This document shows positions 64 to 63,044 of a DNA stretch of 64,000 nt, one piece after another. The stretch lies in assembly GCF_009914755.1 (NCBI RefSeq), contig NC_060932.1. One strand, given 5' to 3'. Source of the stretch: the human T2T-CHM13v2.0 reference genome, Homo sapiens. Below the pieces are notes generated by a model. It was not told the origin of the DNA, made no database searches, and saw only the letters and a list, made by a program, of their open reading frames with translations. Each line of letters starts with the position of its first letter. Position 1 is the stretch's first letter. Made by a program: the position numbers and the translations under genes.

Positions 64-2091
64 CTAAGGACAGGCCAGGGCGGCGGGAGAGGCGGACCGG
101 TGGCGTGGCTGGATCTGGGCGCGCTGTCGGACCTTCCACATCACCAGCTGCAGGCAGGCGTTTGCGTCCTCGCTGGAGTTGTGGCCGTCCTGGCTGTCCT
201 GGATGATCTGTGCCAGGTAGTCGGCCGCGAGATTCCTGAGGGAGCGCTTGTAGGGGAAACCCAGGTAGTGCGGGAAGAGCACGGCCGTGTCCACCACGGT
301 GCTGTGGATGAGCTTCAGGGCCAGCAGGTCGCTCTCCAGGCTGTGCCCGATGAGGATGGTTTGGGCGCTGAAAAAGCTCAGCAGGATGGCTTGGACTTGG
401 GGCAACGTGATGCTCGTCTTGGCGACGTCGGCCTCGGTGACTCCGGAAAACCTGGTGTTGTAGTCCACGATCTCGTTGTCGGGCTTGACGAAGGTGTCGT
501 ACACCACTCGCATGTCGGCGTCCACCACGGTGACGCGGGTCAGCTCTAGGCCATGCGTGGTGTAGCACATCTCACAGTCCAAGGCGTAGATTCCTGGATA
601 AGCGTCTCTGGACAACTCTTTCTTGAAGGTCTCCACGAAGCCATCGAGGCTCTCCTTGCGGCCGTCCCGCACGTGCTGCTTTGCCACCTGGCAGCCCACA
701 GAGCCAGGAGCAGCTGCACAGCAGGTGTACTGGCTAACCCGGCCTCCAGCCACCTGGCTCGAGCGGACCCGCCCCCAGTGATAATAACACAACTGGTCGC
801 GTACACAGCGGCCCGAGGAGGACACCAGGTACTCGGTGCCACAACGGCAGCAGACCCTGCAGGAGGAGTCGCCGGGCCCCTTCCCCTGGCCAGTGAAGAG
901 GACGGCGCCTCCGGGCCGCTCGGGGTGCGGGAAGGGGTAGCCGTTCTCCTTGAGCTGGTCCTGGGTGAGCAGGAACTCCTGGAGGCGGCTGTACAGGGCG
1001 GCCCTGCTGAGGCCGGGCATGGAGCTGGGGGTCAGGCCCTTCAGTCTCTTGAGGGTGTTCAGGACCACGTTCAGGTACCTGTTCTTGTTGGGGCTGCAGT
1101 CGTAGGCCACCTTCTCCTCGTTCAGCGCCTTCTCCTCGGCCTCCTGCTTGGAGGCGCAGAACTTGAGACACTCTTCGGTGAACAGTTGGAGATAGCCTCG
1201 GCGGAGGACGGTGGGGACTTGGCACCCAGAGCTTCGGAGGATAATGGGTTTCTTCAAACTCAAACTCGGTAAGGATGCACGACGGACGATTCGCTTAGAG
1301 CTGGTGGTGGCGGTGGTCTTGCATGCCATCCCTGACCTGTTGCGCGTCTTCCCTGGCTGTCTGCCGACCTTGGAGCCACGGGAGCGTTGGCTGCTGCTGG
1401 CCACCCGGGTTCTCTTGGCATCTGTGTAACCTGTGACCAAGCAAGGGCTGGAAGAGTGGGCGATCGTCTTCCTCTTCCTGGGGGCTGAGATGCGGACTCC
1501 CGAGGGCCTCTCTGTCAGCCTTGGGGCGGCTGGCAAGCGGCAGGCCGATCCCCTCTGCGCAGGGAAGTAGCACGACTCCGTCACCATCTTGGGCCACGCT
1601 GGGGGCACCGCCGGACCCCTGTTCTGGGGCTCCGCCTGGATGTCCACAAATGCTGAGGCCTGCTTGTGCATCTGGGGCACCCAGAGCCCGAAGCTCTGGG
1701 CAGGCTGATGAGAGGGCAGTGGGAATTCTGGAGCCTCGAGGGCCGCCTCCTCGGCCACCTTCTTAGCTTCTGGGTATCCAGGTGGGAACCAGCAGGGAGC
1801 TGTGGCTCGCAACATCTTGCTGCCTTCGGGAGCACCGGCCGGGCTCTGCTCCGCTCCCAAATGGCGGCTTGCCTCCGGGGCCGCCTCCTTGGCCACCTTC
1901 TTAGCTTCTGGGTATCCAGGGCGGAACCAGCAGGGAGCTGTGGCTCGCAACATCTTGCTGCCTTCGGGAGCACCGGCCTGGCTCTGCTCCCCTCCCAAAT
2001 GGCGGCTTGCCTCCAGGGCCGCCTCCTCGGCCACCTTCTTAGCTTCTGGGTATCCAGGGGGGAACCAGCAGGGAGCTGTGGCTCGCAACAT
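64..2091 (-). CDS. REXO1L1P: REXO1-like (GOR) DEDDh 3'-5' exonuclease, 675 aa, intronless retrogene, copy 1
   Basis: The ORF-track start at 2136 is TTG; the first ATG is 2091-2089 (AAGATGT, A at -3) and the stop is TAG at 66-64. ExoI ALDCEM, Exo[10 protein letters not shown] and Exo[11 protein letters not shown] are present, as is the REXO1-type Cys/His region (CCRCG...CYYHWG...YTCC). The exact paralog number cannot be assigned. Confidence 0.93.
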
Positions 2092-2146
2092 CTTGCTGCC
2101 TTCGGGAGCACCGGCCTGGCTCTGCTCCTCTCCCAACTGGCGGCTT
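1733..2146 (-). repeat. 3 x 138-bp tandem repeat (46-aa unit) spanning the 5'UTR and N-terminus, copy 1
   Basis: CAT(ATG) at 2089, 1951 and 1813, 138 bp apart; span is exactly 414 bp. Confidence 0.97.
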
Positions 2147-2149
2147 CAA

Positions 2150-2424
2150 TGAGTGCTGCGGCCGCCACTTGTCGCCTTTATATAGGCACAGGGCAGACTG
2201 GGTGGGACTTCTCCTTGATAGGTTGGTGCTTCAGTCCAATCACACTGAGCCTCATCTTCCACCAGACTCCAGCTTGGGAATGCCTCAGGGGGTGCGCTAA
2301 TGGAATCAACTGGAACTCCCGGTTGCTAAACTTGGAGCTAGGTTGCTTTTCCTGAGTTAAGTAACTGTCCCTGCAGGGCAGTCCTATAATGGCTACTGGA
2401 ATTGGGCTACCTAGGATTAAATTA
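2150..2424 (-). promoter_or_regulatory. Putative Pol II promoter of REXO1L copy 1: TATA box, CCAAT box, DUX4-type sites
   Basis: TATATAAAG on the minus strand at 2184-2176; Inr-like GCACTCATT ~30 nt downstream (~2150-2154); CCAATCA at 2236-2242; TAATGGAATCA at 2298-2308; TAATTTAATCC on the minus strand at 2424-2414. Confidence 0.7.
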
Positions 2425-2629
2425 AGGTTCAGGGAGGTTGGTCAACTTGCTTGGGCCCACACAGCACCCCTTGGAGCCAGGACTGGGCCAGCAGTCTGCT
2501 GCATGCTGGAGGGCGGGATCCCTCTGGGGCTGCCTTTCCCTGCTCTGTGCACTCCGCCGCTGCGGGCAAATTGAGGACAGGAAGCGGACCGCACCCACTT
2601 CTCTCCCAGGACTTGGGCAATGTTCAACA

Positions 2630-3518
2630 CAGGTGGTCTTCCAAAGGTTCATAGAAAATGCACATGGTGAAGAAACGATGCATGGATTTCCACTGGTGTG
2701 CACTAAAATAAACTTGTCCTAACTTCTGATAACCTTTCTGAACTAGATCTAGTTTGAGGCACTAAGAAGGATGAGACATCCACTGAAAAGGACTCCCGTC
2801 AGAGCAACATGAATTCCACGAAAATTGCAGCAAGAGGAAACATCAAATTTATGGTGAAGCTTGGGTGGAAGATTGAAGAAATCATTGACGTTTTAAGAAA
2901 AGCTTGTAAGGACACTACCCCAAAGAAATGAACTCTTTACGAATGTATAGCTTGTTTCAAGAAGAGGTGAGAAGATGTGGAAGATGAATCCTGCAGTGGC
3001 TGTGAAAACCACTGTGCCCAGATGAGCTGCAGTTACGACGAGAGCTATCAGTGGAAATTTTAAACAGGAGGGATCACGATCCTGACGCATCCCTCTGACA
3101 AATTGTAAGCGGCAGTTGGAACATGGCTTCACCAATATGATCGCCAAGGCAAAGCATCATGAAAGCGATGGCTACCAAGAGGTGGCAGTGGTCCAGTCAA
3201 AGGAAAAGGAGGCCAGTCAGGAGCCCACATCATGGCATCAGTGTTTTGGGACACTCAAGGCATTTTGCTTGTTGACTTTCTGAAAGGCCAAACATCTGCT
3301 TATTAGGAGAGTGTTCTGAGAAGCTTAGATAAAGCTTTGGTAGAAACATGCTGGGAAAGTCTCACTAGATCCTTGTTCACCACATCAATGCTCTGCTCAT
3401 TCCTCTCATCAAACAAGGGCAATTTTGTCAGTTTCAATGGGCAGTCCTTAGGAATTCACCTTACGGGCTGCTTTCATTCCTTCTAAATTCTTTTTGTTTC
3501 CTAATGATAAAAAGTCTC
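2630..3518 (+). mobile_element. HSMAR2 mariner DNA transposon remnant (5' TIR, internal deletion, 3'-truncated), unit 1
   Basis: TIR-like ggtggtcttccaaaggttcatagaaaatg at ~2632-2660. ATG 2809 gives MNSTKIAARGNIKFMVKLGWK..., resembling the Hsmar2 transposase N-terminus, with in-frame stops. Decayed catalytic-domain sequence continues to ~3518. Confidence 0.88.
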
Positions 3519-3576
3519 CTTGCCTTGCTTGGAAAGATGAGAGAAAGTCTCCTTGCCTTGTTTGGACAGATGAGAG
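3511..3576. repeat. 2 x 33-bp tandem duplication at the HSMAR2 3' breakpoint (all full units)
   Basis: aaagtctccttgccttgcttggaaagatgagag followed by aaagtctccttgccttgtttggacagatgagag. Confidence 0.9.
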
Positions 3577-3784
3577 ATGAGATCCTCCTCTTCTCTCCCA
3601 GGACAGAATGGTGAGACTTGAGTTTCCTTTCTCCTCACTCTTCTCCTCCTTGAGGGAGCTGCTGTGCCGGACAGACCTGCCCCCGTGTCTAGACACTGGT
3701 AGACTCGTTTAAGTTCCTCACAGGCAATCCTCCATGGGGTCAAAGTGGAAGGACTTATTTCTTCAGGGCTCAGTAGTCCACATC

Positions 3785-3897
3785 CTGGCGCGCACCTTCA
3801 CCAGCCCAGGGCGGGGTAGAGGAGGGTGAAAGGGCGTGGCTCAGAGCCCGCTTCTTCCGCTCGGGCGTATCCTGGGAGGAACCCTTGTCCGGTGAGC
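3785..3897 (+). promoter_or_regulatory. Small GC-rich promoter-like patch with Sp/KLF boxes and a splice donor (all full units)
   Basis: GGGCGGGG at 3809-3816, GGGCGTGGC at 3832-3840, CTTCCG, a CpG cluster, and donor-like CG|GTGAGC at 3892. Confidence 0.35.
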
Positions 3898-5379
3898 ATG
3901 TCTTCGTCTCTACCAAATTCCCTAGTGGGACATTTCTGGCAGCCCTACTTGTTCAGCAGCTTACGGGGGTCAGGTGGACCTCTGCTAGTCACCAGCCTGA
4001 AGCCCTTTCTCCATTTCAGCTATTTTGGCAGTTGCCTAGGTGACTTTTGAACCTCATTATCCAGAACAGCAAACGGACGAGGGGTGAGAAGAGTGGCCGT
4101 CTGGGTTTGCAGCATAGTGCTGCCTTCTAGGAGTTGTGCAGTCTTCGATTGTGTGAAACTTCACCTGGCTGATTTGTGGCAATGCCTCCACAAAATCGCT
4201 AAATTCAGTAGCTTTGGCCTTCCAAGATTCATTTACACAATGTTGAATGCTTTAAATGAATGAGCATGAAGAGTGCTGGGCTGGAAAGTGATGAGATGGG
4301 TGGTAGGGACTCCTCGGAGTAGAGGAGTAGAGTTTTACTATTATGACTAGGAGGCAAATAAAAAGAAGCTGAACGTGATCCATAATAAAAGAAGCACACA
4401 CTCACAGAGCTCCATACCAACTACATTAAAATGGAAATCATGATATTTGGAAATACAACTTAATTGGAAATCATTAAGTAATCTCATCAACCTTTTTACA
4501 GTGGGTGGCAGGGCTATGGAGGGAAAACAGCAATGGTTCTGGCACCTACTTAACTTGATTCCATTAAATTCACCCAACAGGCCTCCAGAGAAGATATTAC
4601 TGCTTTGATATTACAAAGGGAAAAACAGCTATGGCGTCTCTGAAAAGCACAACGTGCTAGGACTGGAATGACTTTAAAACCACACATAAATTTCTGAGAG
4701 ATTTTTGCCATAAGGTACCATCCACCTTACTGTAAACCACATCCTAAAATTGTCTGCAGTGCAAATGGATTATGTGCATCCAACAGGAAACAGCATAGGT
4801 TGAGAAGCTGTTACTTAATAGCTTCATTGTCACCACGAGTGTAAAGTGTGGGGTCTCATCACTTTTGCACCCACGTTTTGCCTGTTGGTTTCTCCACACT
4901 GTCAGGAGCATTTGACCAACTCACTGTGGCTCAGGGTCCCTTACGCAGCCTGTTGGGGAAACCAGTGGGTATTGAAGACCTGCCTCTGGTGTGCCAGGAG
5001 GTTGTGCCTGCCGGCCACTCTGACTTGCGATCTTCCGCCTCAGTGTATGGCTTCCTACACCTGGGTAATTAACATTGCCAGCATGATAAGGAGGTCCTTT
5101 CATCACTATTGCCACTAGTCCTTCCGACTCCTGTGCCCTGTTTCTCCTTTATTGGAACCCAAGAACGAGTAAACATAGCATTTTCAAACATCCCGCCCCC
5201 TTCACTGGTAACACCAATATTCCACCATCCTAATTCCCTCACAAGCATTCAGTCTCTCCACCCTGAGGTGGTGAAATCCCTGCAGGCATTTATAAGTATA
5301 CCTGGACAGAAGAAATACAAGATACCGTTCTATTAACTCAATATAGTGTTGCTAAGTTCGTACTTGTGCTTGGTTTATT

Positions 5380-8017: not shown

Positions 8018-11000
8018 CGTTTTCCATTTTTTTTTAAATTATACTTTAATTACTAGGGTACATGTGCACAACGTGCAGGTTTATTACGTATGTAAGCACG
8101 TGCCATGTTGGTGTGCTGCACCCATTCACTAGTCATTTACATTAGGTATATCTCTTAATGTTATCCCTCCCCCTCCCCCCGCCCATGACAGGCCCCGGTG
8201 TGTGATGTTCCCCTTTCTGCGTCCAAGTGTTCTCCTAGTTCAATTCCCACCTATGAGTGGGATCACGCGGTGTTTGGTTTTTTTGTCCTTGCGATAGTTT
8301 GCTAAGAATGATGGTTTCCAGCTTCATCCGTGTCCCTCCGAAGGGCATGAACACATGCTTTTTTATGGCTGCATAGTATTCCACGGTGTATTTGTGCCAC
8401 GTTTCCTTAATCCAGTCTATCATTGATGGACATCTGGGCTGGTTCCAAGTCTTTGCTACTGTGAACGGTGCCGCAATAAACATACGTCTGCGTGTGTCCT
8501 TTTAGCAGCATGATTTATAGTCCTATGGGTGTATACCCAGTAATGGGACGGCTGGGTCAAATGGTATTTCTAATTCTAGATCCTTGAGGATTCGCCACAC
8601 TATCTTCCACAACCGCTGAACTGGTTTACAGTCCCACCAGCAGTGTAAAAGTGTCCCTATTACTCCACTACCTCTCCAGCACCTGTTGTTTCCTGACTTT
8701 TTTATTGATCGCTATTCTAACTGGTGTGAGACGATATCTCTTTGCGGATTTGATTTGCATTTCTCTGATGACCAGTGTTGATGAGCATTTTTTCATGTGT
8801 CTGTTGGCTGCATAAATGTCTTCTTTTTAGAAGTGTCTCTTCATATCCTTCCCGCACTTGTTGATGGGGTTGTTTGGTTTTTCTTGTAACTCTGTTTGAG
8901 TTCTTAGTAGATTCTGGATATTAGCCCTTTGTCAGATGAGTAGATTGCAAAAATTTTCTCCCTTTCTGTAGCATGCCTGTTCACTCTGATGGGAGTTTCT
9001 TTAGCTGTGCAGAAACTCTTTAGTGTAATTAGATGCCGTTTGTCAATATTGGCTTTTGTTGCCTTTGCTTTTGGCGTTTTAGACATGAGGTCCTTGCCCA
9101 TGCCTATGTCCTGAATGGTATTGCCTAGGTTTTCTCCTAGGGTTTGTATGGCTTAAGATGTAACATTTAAGTCTTTCATCCGTCTTGAATAAACTTTTGT
9201 ATAAGGTGTAAGGAAGGGATCCAATTTCACCTTCGGACATATGGCTAGCCAGTTTTCCCAGCACCATTTATTAAATAGGGAATCCTTTCCCCATTTCTTG
9301 TTTTTGTCAGGTTTGTCAAAGATCCGACGGTTGTAGATGTGTCGTATTATTTCTGAGGGCTCTATTCTGTTCCATTGGTCTACAGTAACCAAAAAAAGGC
9401 AACCAACAGCATGCTGTTTGGTTACTGTAGGCTTGTAGTGTAGTTTGAAGTCGGGTAGCTTGATGCCTCCACCTTTGTTCTTTTGGCTTAGGATTATCTT
9501 GGCAGTGGGGGCCCTTTTGTGGTTCCATGTAAACTTTCAAGTAGTTTTTTCCAATTCTGTGAAGAAAGTCCTTGGTAGCTTGATGGGGATGGCATTGGAT
9601 CTATAATATACCTTGGGCAGTGTGGCCATTTTCACGATACTGATTCTTCCTAACCGTGAGCATGGAATATTCTTCCATTGGTTTGTGTCCTCTTTTATTT
9701 CGTGGAGCAGTGATTTGTAGTTCTCCTTGAAGAGGTCCTTCGCACATCGCATCCCTTGTTAGTTGGATTCCTCAGAATTTTATTCTCTTTGAAGCAATTG
9801 TGAATGGGAGCTCAGTCATGATTTGGCTCTCTGTTTGCCTGTTATTGGTGTATGAGAATGCTTGTGTGTTTTGCACATCGATTTTGTATCCTGAGACTTT
9901 GCTGAAGTTGCTTATCAGCTTAAGGAGATTTTGGGCTGAGACGATGGGGTTTTCTAAATATTCAATCATGTCATCTACAAACAGGGACAATTTGACTTCC
10001 TCTTTTCCTAATTGATTACTCTTTATTTCTTTCTCCTGCCTGATTGCCCTGGCCAGAAGTTCCAACACTATGTTGAATACGAGTGGTGAGAGAGGGCACC
10101 CCTGTCTTGTGGCAGTTTGCAAAGGGAATGCTTCCACTTTTTGCCCATTCAGTATGATATTGGCTGTGGGTTTGCCCTAAATAGCCCTTATTATTTTGAG
10201 GTATGTCCCATCAGTACCTAATTTATTGAGAGTTTTTGGCATGAAAGGCTGTTGGATTTTGTCAAAGGCCTTTTCTGCATCTGTTGAGATAATCACGCGG
10301 TTTCTGTCTTTGGTTCCGATTATATGCTGGATTATGTTTATTGATTTGCATATGTTGGACCAGCCTTGCATGTCAGGGATGAAGCCCACTTGATCATAAT
10401 GGATAAGCTCTTTGATGTGCTGCTGGATTCGGTTTGCCAGCATTTTATGGAGGATTTTTCCATCGGTGTTCCTCAGGGATATGGGCCGAAAATTCTCTTT
10501 GTTGGTTGTGTCTCTCTCAGCCTTTGGGATCAGGATGATGCTGGCCTCATAAAATGAGATAGGGAGGATTCCCTCTTTTTCTGTTGATTGGAATAGTTTC
10601 CGAAGGAATGGTACCAGCTCCTCCTTGTACTTCTGGTAGAATTCGGCTGTGAATCCGTCTGGTCCTGGAGTTTTATTGCTTGATAGGCTATTAATTATTG
10701 CCTCAATTTCAGAGCCTGTTATTGGTCTATTCAGGCATTCAACTTCTTCCTGGTTTACTCTGGGGAGGTTGCATGTGTCCAGGAATTTATTCATTTCTTC
10801 TAGATTTCCGAGTTTGTTTGCCTAGAGGTGCTGACAGTATTCTCTCATGGTAGTTTGTACTTCTGTGGGATCAGTGGTGATATCCCCTTTATCATTTTTT
10901 ATTGCATCTGCTTGATTCTTCTTCCTTTCATTCTTTAATAGTGTTGCTAGTGGTCTATCAATTTTGTTGATGGTTTCAAAAAACCCGCTCCTGGATTCAT

Positions 11001-23881: not shown

Positions 23882-24445
23882 GATCACACTTTAAAGACCA
23901 AAAGGTAGAAGCGCAAAGACGTTATCTGTCCAATATTACAAACCTAGTAAGTGGTGGAATTTGGCCTTGAACCCAGATCTGTAACTCCAGAGCCGAAGTG
24001 CTTCACCCACCTCCCTGTGGTGCCTCTACAGAAAAAGAGGTAAGCAGGCATTCCGAAAGCTGGTGGGCCGGGGGGCTGGCCTTGTACTCAGAAGCCATGG
24101 AAGTCCCACGTGGGGTGGCTAGTGGTGTAAGGACAGAGGTCTCGGATGGGCAGAGGGATTTGGACAGGCGCGAGGGCGCGCGGCAGGGACTCGGGGGACT
24201 GGGAGTGGCGGCTCGGGGCTGCGGGAGGCGATTGGTGGAAGGACAGAGGTCTGGGAGGGGCAGAGGGATGTGGACAGGCCCGAGGGGCCGCGGCAGGGAT
24301 TCCGGGGGACCGGGAGTGGGGGGTTGGGGTTACTCTTGGCTTTTTGCCCTCTCCTGCCGCCGGCTGCTCCAGTTTCTTTCGCTTTGCGGCGAGGTGGGCA
24401 GGGTGAGCTCTCGGGACTGATGGCGGTTTTGGAAGAGGCCTGGGG

Positions 24446-26473
24446 CTAAGGACAGGCCAGGGCGGCGGGAGAGGCGGACCGGTGGCGTGGCTGGATCTGG
24501 GCGCGCTGTCGGACCTTCCACATCACCAGCTGCAGGCAGGCGTTTGCGTCCTCGCTGGAGTTGTGGCCGTCCTGGCTGTCCTGGATGATCTGTGCCAGGT
24601 AGTCGGCCGCGAGATTCCTGAGGGAGCGCTTGTAGGGGAAACCCAGGTAGTGCGGGAAGAGCACGGCCGTGTCCACCACGGTGCTGTGGATGAGCTTCAG
24701 GGCCAGCAGGTCGCTCTCCAGGCTGTGCCCGATGAGGATGGTTTGGGCGCTGAAAAAGCTCAGCAGGATGGCTTGGACTTGGGGCAACGTGATGCTCGTC
24801 TTGGCGACGTCGGCCTCGGTGACTCCGGAAAACCTGGTGTTGTAGTCCACGATCTCGTTGTCGGGCTTGACGAAGGTGTCGTACACCACTCGCATGTCGG
24901 CGTCCACCACGGTGACGCGGGTCAGCTCTAGGCCATGCGTGGTGTAGCACATCTCACAGTCCAAGGCGTAGATTCCTGGATAAGCGTCTCTGGACAACTC
25001 TTTCTTGAAGGTCTCCACGAAGCCATCGAGGCTCTCCTTGCGGCCGTCCCGCACGTGCTGCTTTGCCACCTGGCAGCCCACAGAGCCAGGAGCAGCTGCA
25101 CAGCAGGTGTACTGGCTAACCCGGCCTCCAGCCACCTGGCTCGAGCGGACCCGCCCCCAGTGATAATAACACAACTGGTCGCGTACACAGCGGCCCGAGG
25201 AGGACACCAGGTACTCGGTGCCACAACGGCAGCAGACCCTGCAGGAGGAGTCGCCGGGCCCCTTCCCCTGGCCAGTGAAGAGGACGGCGCCTCCGGGCCG
25301 CTCGGGGTGCGGGAAGGGGTAGCCGTTCTCCTTGAGCTGGTCCTGGGTGAGCAGGAACTCCTGGAGGCGGCTGTACAGGGCGGCCCTGCTGAGGCCGGGC
25401 ATGGAGCTGGGGGTCAGGCCCTTCAGTCTCTTGAGGGTGTTCAGGACCACGTTCAGGTACCTGTTCTTGTTGGGGCTGCAGTCGTAGGCCACCTTCTCCT
25501 CGTTCAGCGCCTTCTCCTCGGCCTCCTGCTTGGAGGCGCAGAACTTGAGACACTCTTCGGTGAACAGTTGGAGATAGCCTCGGCGGAGGACGGTGGGGAC
25601 TTGGCACCCAGAGCTTCGGAGGATAATGGGTTTCTTCAAACTCAAACTCGGTAAGGATGCACGACGGACGATTCGCTTAGAGCTGGTGGTGGCGGTGGTC
25701 TTGCATGCCATCCCTGACCTGTTGCGCGTCTTCCCTGGCTGTCTGCCGACCTTGGAGCCACGGGAGCGTTGGCTGCTGCTGGCCACCCGGGTTCTCTTGG
25801 CATCTGTGTAACCTGTGACCAAGCAAGGGCTGGAAGAGTGGGCGATCGTCTTCCTCTTCCTGGGGGCTGAGATGCGGACTCCCGAGGGCCTCTCTGTCAG
25901 CCTTGGGGCGGCTGGCAAGCGGCAGGCCGATCCCCTCTGCGCAGGGAAGTAGCACGACTCCGTCACCATCTTGGGCCACGCTGGGGGCACCGCCGGACCC
26001 CTGTTCTGGGGCTCCGCCTGGATGTCCACAAATGCTGAGGCCTGCTTGTGCATCTGGGGCACCCAGAGCCCGAAGCTCTGGGCAGGCTGATGAGAGGGCA
26101 GTGGGAATTCTGGAGCCTCGAGGGCCGCCTCCTCGGCCACCTTCTTAGCTTCTGGGTATCCAGGTGGGAACCAGCAGGGAGCTGTGGCTCGCAACATCTT
26201 GCTGCCTTCGGGAGCACCGGCCGGGCTCTGCTCCGCTCCCAAATGGCGGCTTGCCTCCGGGGCCGCCTCCTTGGCCACCTTCTTAGCTTCTGGGTATCCA
26301 GGGCGGAACCAGCAGGGAGCTGTGGCTCGCAACATCTTGCTGCCTTCGGGAGCACCGGCCTGGCTCTGCTCCCCTCCCAAATGGCGGCTTGCCTCCAGGG
26401 CCGCCTCCTCGGCCACCTTCTTAGCTTCTGGGTATCCAGGGGGGAACCAGCAGGGAGCTGTGGCTCGCAACAT
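24446..26473 (-). CDS. REXO1L1P: REXO1-like (GOR) exonuclease, 675 aa, copy 3
   Basis: Intact ORF; protein identical to copy 1. Confidence 0.93.
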
Positions 26474-61016: not shown

Positions 61017-63044
61017 CTAAGGACAGGCCAGGGCGGCGGGAGAGGCGGACCGGTGGCGTGGCTGGATCTGGGCGCGCTGTCGGACCTTCCACATCACCAG
61101 CTGCAGGCAGGCGTTTGCGTCCTCGCTGGAGTTGTGGCCGTCCTGGCTGTCCTGGATGATCTGTGCCAGGTAGTCGGCCGCGAGATTCCTGAGGGAGCGC
61201 TTGTAGGGGAAACCCAGGTAGTGCGGGAAGAGCACGGCCGTGTCCACCACGGTGCTGTGGATGAGCTTCAGGGCCAGCAGGTCGCTCTCCAGGCTGTGCC
61301 CGATGAGGATGGTTTGGGCGCTGAAAAAGCTCAGCAGGATGGCTTGGACTTGGGGCAACGTGATGCTCGTCTTGGCGACGTCGGCCTCGGTGACTCCGGA
61401 AAACCTGGTGTTGTAGTCCACGATCTCGTTGTCGGGCTTGACGAAGGTGTCGTACACCACTCGCATGTCGGCGTCCACCACGGTGACGCGGGTCAGCTCT
61501 AGGCCATGCGTGGTGTAGCACATCTCACAGTCCAAGGCGTAGATTCCTGGATAAGCGTCTCTGGACAACTCTTTCTTGAAGGTCTCCACGAAGCCATCGA
61601 GGCTCTCCTTGCGGCCGTCCCGCACGTGCTGCTTTGCCACCTGGCAGCCCACAGAGCCAGGAGCAGCTGCACAGCAGGTGTACTGGCTAACCCGGCCTCC
61701 AGCCACCTGGCTCGAGCGGACCCGCCCCCAGTGATAATAACACAACTGGTCGCGTACACAGCGGCCCGAGGAGGACACCAGGTACTCGGTGCCACAACGG
61801 CAGCAGACCCTGCAGGAGGAGTCGCCGGGCCCCTTCCCCTGGCCAGTGAAGAGGACGGCGCCTCCAGGCCGCTCGGGGTGCGGGAAGGGGTAGCCGTTCT
61901 CCTTGAGCTGGTCCTGGGTGAGCAGGAACTCCTGGAGGCGGCTGTACAGGGCGGCCCTGCTGAGGCCGGGCATGGAGCTGGGGGTCAGGCCCTTCAGTCT
62001 CTTGAGGGTGTTCAGGACCACGTTCAGGTACCTGTTCTTGTTGGGGCTGCAGTCGTAGGCCACCTTCTCCTCGTTCAGCGCCTTCTCCTCGGCCTCCTGC
62101 TTGGAGGCGCAGAACTTGAGACACTCTTCGGTGAACAGTTGGAGATAGCCTCGGCGGAGGACGGTGGGGACTTGGCACCCAGAGCTTCGGAGGATAATGG
62201 GTTTCTTCAAACTCAAACTCGGTAAGGATGCACGACGGACGATTCGCTTAGAGCTGGTGGTGGCGGTGGTCTTGCATGCCATCCCTGACCTGTTGCGCGT
62301 CTTCCCTGGCTGTCTGCCGACCTTGGAGCCACGGGAGCGTTGGCTGCTGCTGGCCACCCGGGTTCTCTTGGCATCTGTGTAACCTGTGACCAAGCAAGGG
62401 CTGGAAGAGTGGGCGATCGTCTTCCTCTTCCTGGGGGCTGAGATGCGGACTCCCGAGGGCCTCTCTGTCAGCCTTGGGGCGGCTGGCAAGCGGCAGGCCG
62501 ATCCCCTCTGCGCAGGGAAGTAGCACGACTCCGTCACCATCTTGGGCCACGCTGGGGGCACCGCCGGACCCCTGTTCTGGGGCTCCGCCTGGATGTCCAC
62601 AAATGCTGAGGCCTGCTTGTGCATCTGGGGCACCCAGAGCCCGAAGCTCTGGGCAGGCTGATGAGAGGGCAGTGGGAATTCTGGAGCCTCGAGGGCCGCC
62701 TCCTCGGCCACCTTCTTAGCTTCTGGGTATCCAGGTGGGAACCAGCAGGGAGCTGTGGCTCGCAACATCTTGCTGCCTTCGGGAGCACCGGCCGGGCTCT
62801 GCTCCGCTCCCAAATGGCGGCTTGCCTCCGGGGCCGCCTCCTTGGCCACCTTCTTAGCTTCTGGGTATCCAGGGCGGAACCAGCAGGGAGCTGTGGCTCG
62901 CAACATCTTGCTGCCTTCGGGAGCACCGGCCTGGCTCTGCTCCCCTCCCAAATGGCGGCTTGCCTCCAGGGCCGCCTCCTCGGCCACCTTCTTAGCTTCT
63001 GGGTATCCAGGGGGGAACCAGCAGGGAGCTGTGGCTCGCAACAT
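61017..63044 (-). CDS. REXO1L1P: REXO1-like (GOR) exonuclease, 675 aa, copy 6
   Basis: Intact ORF; protein identical to copy 1, with one synonymous change (~61866). Confidence 0.93.

What the first reader, a model, noticed from the sequence alone, without database searches (positions are those of the whole stretch)
2150..2424. TATA promoter with DUX4-consensus sites in every unit: candidate embryonic-genome-activation gene array
Seen: TATATAAAG (2184-2176), CCAATCA (2236), TAATGGAATCA (2298-2308) and TAATTTAATCC (minus strand, 2424-2414), all invariant in six units. Known: the DUX4 consensus is TAAYBBAATCA. The first site fits it exactly. The second has one mismatch and contains the PRD-like homeodomain TAATCC core. 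CAGTCCAATCA (2232-2242) is a two-mismatch third site. DUX4 targets are often multicopy primate genes (ZSCAN4, PRAMEF, TRIM43, MBD3L). Inference: a DUX4-switched burst of an RNA exonuclease in cleavage-stage embryos, also induced in FSHD muscle or DUX4-positive tumours, possibly acting in RNA clearance or elongation control.
Basis: partly seen in the sequence, partly recalled or inferred. Interest (0 to 1): 0.8.

Follow-up and report, generated by a model that had tools for sequence, protein, structure and literature searches.

The report
REXO1L1 array promoter with DUX4-type sites
Each 12-kb unit of the human chromosome 8 REXO1L1/GOR gene array carries a textbook TATA/CCAAT promoter with an exact DUX4-type binding word just upstream, but whether DUX4 actually switches the array on in early embryos is not shown.

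Summary
TATATAAAG (2184-2176, minus), CCAATCA (2236-2242), TAATGGAATCA (2298-2308, exact TAAYBBAATCA) and TAATTTAATCC (2424-2414, minus) are all present and identical in the six units. Genome-wide they occur in all 71 array copies.

This invariance carries no information. The copies differ by only about 0.1-0.5%, and zero changes in 38 motif bases is expected by chance (P about 0.3).

The geometry fits a Pol II core promoter for the intact 675-aa ORF: TATA at -30/-34, an initiator-like CTCATT at 2150-2154, an inverted CCAAT at about -87, and the ATG at 2091. An exact DUX4 word plus a one-mismatch site within 300 bp is rare in shuffles (2 in 10,000).

DUX4 control itself is untested. REXO1L was absent from every DUX4 or 8-cell list I could read, but those pipelines drop multi-mapping reads.

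[quoted passage not shown] They do not fall between oocyte and 4-cell, unlike six maternal neighbours.

Verdict: a real promoter and a plausible early-embryo gene. I put DUX4 dependence at about 25%.

The parts
2176..2184 (-). TATA box TATATAAAG, once per unit. Copies in the other units lie at offsets +12192, +24382, +36572, +48761 and +60953.
   Evidence: It is the only TATAWAWR match near the ORF start. No variant in the 51 copies examined.
2150..2154 (-). Predicted transcription start. A2154 lies 30 nt and A2150 lies 34 nt after the first T of the TATA box. CTCATT around A2150 fits the initiator consensus BBCABW, which I recall from memory.
   Evidence: Sequence read. This is an inference; I saw no 5'-end data at base resolution.
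2236..2242 (+). CCAATCA, a CCAAT box inverted relative to the gene, about 84-90 nt upstream of the predicted start. This is the usual NF-Y position (recalled).
   Evidence: CCAAT occurs 22 times per unit on both strands, so this position alone is weak evidence.
2298..2308 (+). TAATGGAATCA, an exact match to the DUX4 consensus TAAYBBAATCA, about 146-156 nt upstream of the predicted start.
   Evidence: The 26-mer around it occurs in 71 array copies: 70 exact and 1 with a flank mismatch.
2414..2424 (-). TAATTTAATCC. It has one mismatch (the last base) to the DUX4 consensus and carries the TAATCC core of K50 paired-like homeodomains. It lies about 262-272 nt upstream.
   Evidence: The 26-mer is exact in 71 array copies.
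2401..2405 (-). Second CCAAT, on the gene strand, next to the TAATCC site.
64..2091 (-). Intact 675-aa REXO1L1/GOR ORF with an EloA-BP1 domain and a C-terminal RNase_T (DEDDh-type) exonuclease domain.
   Evidence: The ORF is open in 6 of 6 window units and in 51 of 51 copies examined.
1733..2146 (.). Three tandem copies of a 138-bp unit spanning the 5' leader and the first ~130 codons. Each copy carries an in-frame ATG.
   Evidence: Six of 51 copies have one repeat fewer, giving 629 aa.
4556..4566 (-). Second exact DUX4-consensus word (the same 11-mer, TAATGGAATCA), about 2.4 kb upstream of the gene.

Best explanation
Bases 2150-2424 are the core and proximal promoter of the single-exon REXO1L1/GOR retrogene, copied with every 12.19-kb unit of the 8q21.2 array.

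A consensus TATA box sets the start about 30-34 nt downstream, at 2150-2154. An inverted CCAAT box at about -87 would recruit NF-Y. Two paired-type homeodomain words, at about -150 and about -267, lie in a CpG-poor stretch.

The RNA is present in human embryos up to the 4-cell stage and is removed by the 8-cell stage. The array therefore behaves as an oocyte-to-early-cleavage gene rather than a major-EGA (8-cell) gene.

The homeodomain words are candidate inputs for PRD-class factors present before major genome activation: DUX4, DUXA, OTX2 or TPRX-type proteins. Which of these acts, if any, is not shown. Basal activity does not need DUX4.

Shown: the motifs, their geometry, the open frame, the domains and the embryo time course. 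Inferred: the start site, NF-Y use and homeodomain input.
For: - Motif positions and geometry. The ATG is at 2091 and the ORF is open in 6 of 6 units and 51 of 51 copies.
- Pfam gives EloA-BP1 at 2e-38 and RNase_T at 1.3e-7.
- The upstream 2251-2500 stretch is CpG-poor (2 CpGs, observed/expected 0.12), next to a CpG-rich gene body.
- An exact site plus a one-mismatch site within 300 bp has P = 0.0002 in 5000 shuffles.
- PMC4569847 supplements: TFE FE527666 (REXO1L1, labelled CDS) scores -67.2 with q = 0 in 'significantly decreased 4-cell to 8-cell', row 79 of 1,512.
- REXO1L has 0 occurrences in the 33,794-row 'decreased oocyte to 4-cell' file. Six of six maternal-type neighbours from the same list are in that file under the same TFE ids: WEE2, NLRP4, PATL2, TUBB8, UHRF1 and ACTL8.
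- RT-PCR signal after DNase treatment in colon and breast cancer lines and in irradiated HEK293 shows activity without known DUX4 (PMC4422118, passages).
Against: - I saw no base-resolution 5'-end data. The embryo TFE is labelled 'CDS', not 5'-UTR, and spans 1.67 kb. It may therefore reflect partly degraded RNA or an internal start.
- The embryo evidence is one row in one study that uses uniquely mapped reads in hg19.
- In CHM13 the 3-kb REXO1L1 part of each unit is methylated (PMC8099727, passage), so the promoter may be silent in most cells.
- CCAAT is frequent (22 per unit).
- Diversity among copies is no lower in the promoter (1.4-1.6 per kb) than in several neutral-looking windows (0.5-1.1 per kb at 3251-4000).
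Confidence: 0.5

Rival explanations
1. DUX4 binds TAATGGAATCA (and TAATTTAATCC) and switches on all units at once, giving a burst of the exonuclease in cleavage embryos. The same switch would operate in FSHD muscle and in DUX4-positive tumours.
For: - An exact consensus lies about 150 nt upstream of the predicted start, with a second near-site 116 nt further up and a third exact word at 4556.
- The same 11-mer, in reverse complement, lies inside a published HSat2-A1 probe, and HSATII is DUX4-bound and activated. This suggests the GG variant can be used, but that is an inference.
- REXO1L1 RNA holds its level from oocyte to 4-cell and then falls. The DUX4 target PRAMEF1 also appears in the 4-to-8-cell decreased list.
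- This timing overlaps the window when DUX4 is present (PMC8990217 abstract).
- Like other DUX4 targets, it is a primate multicopy array (PMC4063668).
Against: - REXO1L has 0 occurrences in 8 supplementary files of PMC11735616, which hold lists of DUX4-, HSV-1- and 8-cell-induced genes. ZSCAN4 was found there as a positive control.
- It has 0 occurrences in 4 files of the 8C-like-cell paper PMC8901440.
- It has 0 occurrences in the readable files of PMC8990217. The NET-CAGE and bulk STRT tables were too large to read.
- It is not among the 32 TFEs accumulating at 4-cell or the 129 accumulating at 8-cell.
- ZSCAN4, LEUTX, TRIM43, MBD3L and DUXA are not in the decreased list, so a 4-to-8-cell fall is not the usual behaviour of a DUX4 target.
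- Only 738 of 63,795 bound sites (1.2%) activate a transcript.
- The optimum site is TAATCTAATCA. Here the central pair is GG.
- No paper in the library links the two. There are 7 co-mentions. I read passages in two of them and neither link was functional.
Confidence: 0.25
2. The homeodomain words are chance matches with no regulatory role. The array is largely methylated and silent, and most reported 'expression' reflects its very high copy number: genomic DNA carry-over, or mapping artefacts of an intronless 70-300-copy sequence.
For: - A human genome of 3.1 Gb must hold tens of thousands of exact TAAYBBAATCA words (my arithmetic: about 8.6e-6 per base counting both strands), and most bound sites do nothing.
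- There is no constraint signal. 0 of 38 motif bases vary in 51 copies where 1.25 changes are expected (P about 0.29). The diverged edge copy has 15 changes in 509 bases and none in the motifs, where 1.1 are expected.
- In a PBMC microarray study, REXO1L1/2P/3P/5P/6P/7P rise together with DUX4, DUX1, DUB3, TCEB3C, FAM90A7 and NBPF9.
- The gene part is methylated in CHM13.
Against: - DNA carry-over cannot explain a per-cell fall from 4-cell to 8-cell.
- The exact site plus near-site within 300 bp of a consensus TATA box is rare in shuffles (0.0002).
- The ORF is open in 51 of 51 copies, with lower diversity (1.03 per kb) than the upstream flank (4.72 per kb).
Confidence: 0.2

Closest known systems
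Direct DUX4 target promoters of multicopy primate gene families (ZSCAN4, PRAMEF, TRIM43/48, MBD3L, KHDC1L)
   Same: A double-homeobox word close to the start site, more than one site per promoter, a primate-expanded multicopy gene, and RNA present in 4-cell embryos.
   Different: No occupancy or induction is shown, and the gene is absent from the target lists I could read. The central dinucleotide is GG, not the optimal CT. The RNA decreases rather than rises from 4- to 8-cell. At the sensitivity of the whole-genome search, the promoter is not a dispersed LTR or MaLR element: 72 candidates were found, and the 40 scored all lie in the array.
Macrosatellite-embedded genes (DUX4 in D4Z4; USP17/DUB3; TCEB3C/ELOA3)
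   Same: One intronless ORF with its own promoter per tandem unit, extreme copy-number variation (108-266 copies in 165 people) and expansion in African apes (PMC4063668).
   Different: The 12.19-kb unit is much larger than the gene. The array lies in five blocks of alternating orientation and can host a neocentromere (PMC8099727). Its regulation has not been described.
Z-decay type maternal transcripts of human embryos (stable to 4-cell, cleared at 8-cell)
   Same: The time course matches: no significant fall from oocyte to 4-cell, then a strong fall from 4- to 8-cell.
   Different: I saw no direct oocyte measurement for REXO1L1. It was not found in the single readable supplementary file of PMC7530992.

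Membership tests
Direct DUX4 target promoter | Match to the DUX4 double-homeobox consensus near the transcription start | tested here: met
   TAATGGAATCA at 2298-2308 is an exact TAAYBBAATCA match about 150 nt upstream of the predicted start. The consensus is as quoted in PMC12376486.
Direct DUX4 target promoter | DUX4 occupancy in ChIP-seq, CUT&RUN or CUT&Tag | not testable with these tools
   No read data are available here. The published peak calling removed multi-mapping reads (PMC3836709), so a 99.9%-identical array is invisible to it.
Direct DUX4 target promoter | Induction on DUX4 expression | tested here: inconclusive
   REXO1L is absent from the readable supplementary lists of PMC11735616 (8 files, ZSCAN4 found as control) and PMC8990217. 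The NET-CAGE and bulk STRT tables of PMC8990217 and the .xls tables of PMC5362247 could not be read. Other DUX4-induction papers were not held.
Direct DUX4 target promoter | Accumulation of RNA at the 4-cell to 8-cell stages | tested here: not met
   REXO1L is not in the lists of 32 (oocyte to 4-cell) or 129 (4- to 8-cell) accumulating TFEs. It is in the 4-to-8-cell decreased list with score -67.2 and q = 0. Presence at the 4-cell stage is shown.
TATA-dependent Pol II core promoter | Consensus TATA box about 30 nt upstream of an initiator, in the gene's orientation, upstream of the ORF | tested here: met
   TATATAAAG lies at 2184-2176. A2154 and A2150 lie 30 and 34 nt downstream, and the ATG is at 2091. 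The initiator consensus is recalled from memory.
TATA-dependent Pol II core promoter | Mapped capped 5' ends at the predicted start | not testable with these tools
   The only 5'-end record I saw is a 1.67-kb TFE labelled 'CDS' in hg19 coordinates. I could not place it on the unit.
REXO1-type DEDDh exonuclease (retrocopy) | EloA-BP1 domain plus an RNase_T exonuclease domain in an open frame | tested here: met
   PF15870 at 2e-38. PF00929 at 1.3e-7 and 32.8 bits, above the cut-off of 24, covering profile positions 3-163 of 164. The ORF is open in 51 of 51 copies. Enzyme activity was not tested.

The most novel reading that the evidence does not exclude
The 8q21.2 macrosatellite is a burst generator driven by DUX4 or another PRD-class factor. 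Some 70-300 identical promoters fire together between the zygote and 4-cell stages and flood the embryo with a DEDDh exonuclease / Elongin-A-binding paralogue. This protein would help clear maternal RNA or tune Pol II elongation at genome activation. The array's extreme copy-number variation would then be a heritable dose variable for the earliest human development.
Probability: 0.12. Interest if true: 0.8.

Novelty: new member of a known kind. Interest (0 to 1): 0.45.

Why it matters
REXO1L1/GOR is one of the largest and most copy-variable gene arrays in humans, with 108-266 copies in 165 people and up to about 860 in a gorilla (PMC4063668). That paper states its function is unknown.

The full-text searches I ran found no paper linking it to early embryos or to DUX4, and I saw no description of its promoter.

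If the array is a DUX4 or PRD-class target, it would add a nuclease to the early-embryo programme. It would also give a reason for keeping hundreds of open reading frames, and it would be a new repeat-borne read-out in FSHD and in DUX4-positive tumours.

The question can be settled with existing public data remapped to the complete genome.

Tried and rejected
1. **Invariance as evidence of selection: rejected.**
   - I examined 51 of the 71 copies.
   - There are 165 segregating sites in 5 kb (33 per kb). None falls in the 38 motif bases, where 1.25 are expected.
   - Promoter diversity (1.4-1.6 per kb) is not below that of other quiet windows.
2. **CAGTCCAATCA as a third DUX4 site: rejected.** It has two mismatches and sits at the classical CCAAT-box position.
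3. **Promoter as a dispersed LTR/MaLR copy: not supported.** A whole-genome search gave 72 first-look candidates. The 40 scored all lie in the chr8 array at 100% identity. The two 26-mers occur nowhere else, apart from one 3-mismatch hit on chr11. An old, diverged element cannot be excluded.
4. **PU.1 reading of site 1 (two GGAA cores): not favoured.**
   - PU.1 does bind the repeat in monocytes (PMC9457492).
   - The only strong PU.1-type word, AGAGGAAGT, is at 9995-10003.
   - The published peak position was not available to me.
5. **Literature searches for a stated link.**
   - REXO1L with DUX4: 7 papers.
   - REXO1L with oocyte: 1 paper, irrelevant.
   - REXO1L with embryo: 19 papers, none on early embryos judged by title.
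   - ELOA3/TCEB3C with DUX4: nothing in the top 15.
   - The exact 11-mers: only primer or satellite contexts.
   - One search was badly framed and uninformative.
6. **Sources I could not reach.**
   - Two papers were not held.
   - PMC5362247 has only old .xls files.
7. **Mariner-like fragment at 2809-2928.** A Pfam scan of the 40-aa open stretch found nothing.

Full report
**What is there**

The window is a run of the 12.19-kb REXO1L1/GOR repeat of 8q21.2.
- TATATAAAG lies on the minus strand at 2184-2176.
- CCAATCA lies at 2236-2242.
- TAATGGAATCA lies at 2298-2308 and is an exact match to TAAYBBAATCA.
- TAATTTAATCC lies on the minus strand at 2424-2414, with one mismatch at the last base.

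The TATA word occurs six times in the window (0.31 expected). The DUX4 consensus occurs eleven times (0.55 expected; 0 of 100 shuffles reached 11).

The six units start at offsets 0, 12192, 24382, 36572, 48761 and 60953. Bases 2100-2600 are identical in units 1-5 and differ at one base in unit 6 (2287), outside every motif.

**Is it more than chance?**

Within a single unit, dinucleotide-preserving shuffles give 0.123 exact sites on average. Two are observed, with P(>=2) = 0.003 in 300 shuffles. One-mismatch sites average 2.94 against 6 observed (P = 0.08).

In the 300 bases upstream of the TATA box, P(at least one exact site) = 0.001 and P(exact plus a one-mismatch site) = 0.0002 in 5000 shuffles. 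The test is post hoc. A 3.1-Gb genome must also contain tens of thousands of exact words (my arithmetic), so rarity in one promoter does not show function.

**Invariance is uninformative**

Genome-wide, the 26-mer around site 1 is found in 71 array copies: 70 exact, and 1 with a mismatch outside the 11-mer. The 26-mer around site 2 is exact in 71 copies. Neither occurs elsewhere, apart from one 3-mismatch hit on chr11.

I fetched 5 kb (ORF, promoter and 2.4 kb upstream) from 51 of the 71 copies.
- Among the 51 copies there are 165 segregating substitutions in 5 kb (33 per kb).
- None falls in the 38 motif bases, where 1.25 would be expected (Poisson P about 0.29).
- With the diverged edge copy dropped, pairwise diversity per kb is 1.03 in the ORF, 1.43 in 2092-2600, 1.61 in 2150-2450 and 4.72 in 2601-5000.
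- The upstream stretch has a hot spot at 2751-3250 (10-15 per kb) and quiet windows of 0.5-1.1 per kb at 3251-4000.
- The edge copy has 15 changes in 2092-2600, none in a motif, where 1.1 are expected.

The human copies therefore give no evidence for or against constraint on the sites.

**Anatomy**

All six units in the window carry an open 675-codon frame on the minus strand (64..2091 and equivalents). RefSeq calls three of them pseudogenes.

Of the 51 copies examined, 43 encode 675 aa. Six encode 629 aa because they have one 138-bp repeat fewer. One encodes 673 aa, and the edge copy encodes 581 aa.

The protein has an Elongin-A-binding-protein-1 domain (PF15870, 2e-38). It also has a C-terminal RNase_T exonuclease domain (PF00929, 1.3e-7, covering 3-163 of 164 profile positions).

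Read on the gene strand, the layout is as follows.
- The first T of the TATA box is at 2184.
- A2154 and A2150 lie 30 and 34 nt downstream. CTCATT around A2150 fits the initiator consensus as I recall it.
- The ATG is at 2091, giving a leader of about 59 nt.
- The CCAAT box (ATTGG on the gene strand) is at about -84 to -90.
- Site 1 is at about -146 to -156 and site 2 at about -262 to -272.

The gene body is CpG-rich (observed/expected 0.5-0.87). The stretch 2251-2500 has two CpGs (0.12). This is the layout of a TATA-dependent, CpG-poor promoter.

The promoter is not a dispersed repeat at the sensitivity of the genome search. There were 72 first-look candidates, about the copy number of the array, and the 40 scored all lie in the array at 100% identity.

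**What is in print about the locus**
- The repeat is 12.192 kb, with 67 full and 7 partial units in CHM13. [quoted passage not shown]
- Copy number runs from 108 to 266 in 165 people and is higher in African apes. The function is stated to be unknown (PMC4063668, passages).
- RT-PCR after DNase treatment detects the RNA in colon and breast cancer lines and in irradiated HEK293 cells (PMC4422118, passages).
- PU.1 and the lincRNA PIRAT bind alternating sites along the repeat in monocytes (PMC9457492, passages). The only strong PU.1-type word I find is at 9995-10003.

**What is in print about DUX4**
- The consensus is TAAYBBAATCA and the optimum is TAATCTAATCA (PMC12376486, passage). The site here therefore fits the consensus but not the optimum.
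- In myoblasts, 738 of 63,795 bound sites (1.2%) activate a transcript. [quoted passage not shown]
- That analysis removed multi-mapping reads (PMC3836709, passages).
- The reverse complement of TAATGGAATCA lies inside a published HSat2-A1 probe (PMC11622622), and HSATII is bound and activated by DUX4. This suggests, but does not show, that the GG variant is usable.

**The test of the interpretation that I could make**

Full-text searches find no paper that links REXO1L with DUX4 or early embryos.
- 7 co-mentions. I read passages in two and neither link was functional.
- 61 papers mention REXO1L, of which 40 were listed.
- 1 paper, irrelevant.
- 19 papers, none on early embryos judged by title.

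In supplementary tables, REXO1L is absent from three sources.
- Eight files of PMC11735616, which list genes induced by DUX4, HSV-1 and the 8-cell stage. ZSCAN4 was found there as a control.
- Four files of the 8C-like-cell paper PMC8901440.
- The readable files of PMC8990217. Its NET-CAGE and bulk STRT tables were too large to read.

These negatives are weak, because the methods count uniquely mapped reads.

One positive record exists. In Töhönen et al. 2015 (PMC4569847), TFE (transcript 5'-end cluster) FE527666 is annotated REXO1L1 and labelled CDS. It lies at chr8:86786050-86787723, minus strand, in hg19. It is in Supplementary Data 5, 'significantly decreased from 4-cell to 8-cell', with score -67.2 and q = 0, at row 79 of 1,512.

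REXO1L is not in the 32 TFEs accumulating from oocyte to 4-cell, nor in the 129 accumulating from 4- to 8-cell. It is also not in the 33,794-row list decreased from oocyte to 4-cell.

Its neighbours in Data 5 are WEE2, NLRP4, NLRP8, PATL2, TUBB8, UHRF1 and ACTL8, which I recognise from memory as oocyte-type RNAs. Six of six that I checked are also in the oocyte-to-4-cell decreased list under the same TFE ids. REXO1L1 is not.

Among DUX4 targets, PRAMEF1 is in Data 5, but ZSCAN4, LEUTX, TRIM43, MBD3L and DUXA are not.

So REXO1L1 RNA is present at the 4-cell stage, has not fallen from the oocyte level, and is then removed. This fits two readings: a stored maternal RNA of the late-decay type, or a short early-embryonic pulse. 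It does not fit an 8-cell burst.

**A caution on expression claims**

In a PBMC microarray study, six REXO1L probes rise together with DUX4, DUX1, DUB3, TCEB3C, FAM90A7 and NBPF9 (PMC4305227 tables). All of these are high-copy arrays. In my reading this is the signature of genomic DNA carry-over, not of DUX4 activity. Any bulk signal from this intronless array needs that control.

**Verdict**

The promoter reading is well founded on sequence geometry, and the gene is an open exonuclease-type frame in every copy examined.

Early-embryo presence has one supporting record. DUX4 dependence is plausible from the motif arrangement but unsupported by any data I could read, and the time course is not that of typical DUX4 targets.

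My probabilities are about 0.5 for an oocyte-to-4-cell promoter with undetermined homeodomain input, 0.25 for direct DUX4 control, and 0.2 for chance motifs on a mostly silent array.

If DUX4 control were shown, this would be a new member of a known kind. The decisive analysis is a multi-mapper-aware remap of existing public reads to one repeat unit.

Noticed in passing
window 4556-4566 (-), and the equivalent place in four further units: A second exact DUX4-consensus word, the identical 11-mer TAATGGAATCA, lies about 2.4 kb upstream of each gene copy. The flanks are unrelated to those of the promoter site.
   Followed up: partly
window 64-2091, 24446-26473, 61017-63044 (-): Three units that RefSeq labels pseudogenes (108..1637, 24232..25386, 61061..62590) carry the same open 675-codon frame as the two 'protein_coding' units. 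51 of 51 array copies examined have an open frame.
   Followed up: yes
window 1733-2146 and equivalents: A 138-bp unit is repeated three times across the 5' leader and the first ~130 codons, and each copy has an in-frame ATG. The repeat number varies between array units: 6 of 51 copies have two repeats (629 aa), which matches the 12,050-bp unit spacing.
   Followed up: partly
window 2751-3250: A hot spot of between-copy diversity (10-15 differences per kb) against 0.5-2 per kb in the ORF and promoter. I did not separate cause from alignment artefact.
   Followed up: no
window 2809-2928 (+): A 40-codon open stretch upstream of the promoter looks to me like the N-terminal part of a mariner-type transposase (from memory). 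A Pfam scan found nothing.
   Followed up: partly
window 9995-10003 (-): This is the only strong PU.1-type word (AGAGGAAGT) in the unit. It lies in the part reported as hypomethylated and open, so it is a candidate for the published PU.1 peak of the REXO1LP repeat.
   Followed up: no
G000:C8:86.08-86.94 Mb (whole array): The 71 promoter copies lie in five blocks of alternating orientation (51 plus, 20 minus). There are two 6,837-bp short units near the start and several 12,050-bp units near the end. This agrees with the five domains described in PMC8099727.
   Followed up: partly
window 64-2091 (-), protein level: The ORF keeps the Elongin-A-binding domain of REXO1. The Elongin A paralogue array TCEB3C shows parallel copy-number expansion in chimpanzee and gorilla (PMC4063668). 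A possible co-amplified partner pair. A search for a link to DUX4 found nothing.
   Followed up: partly
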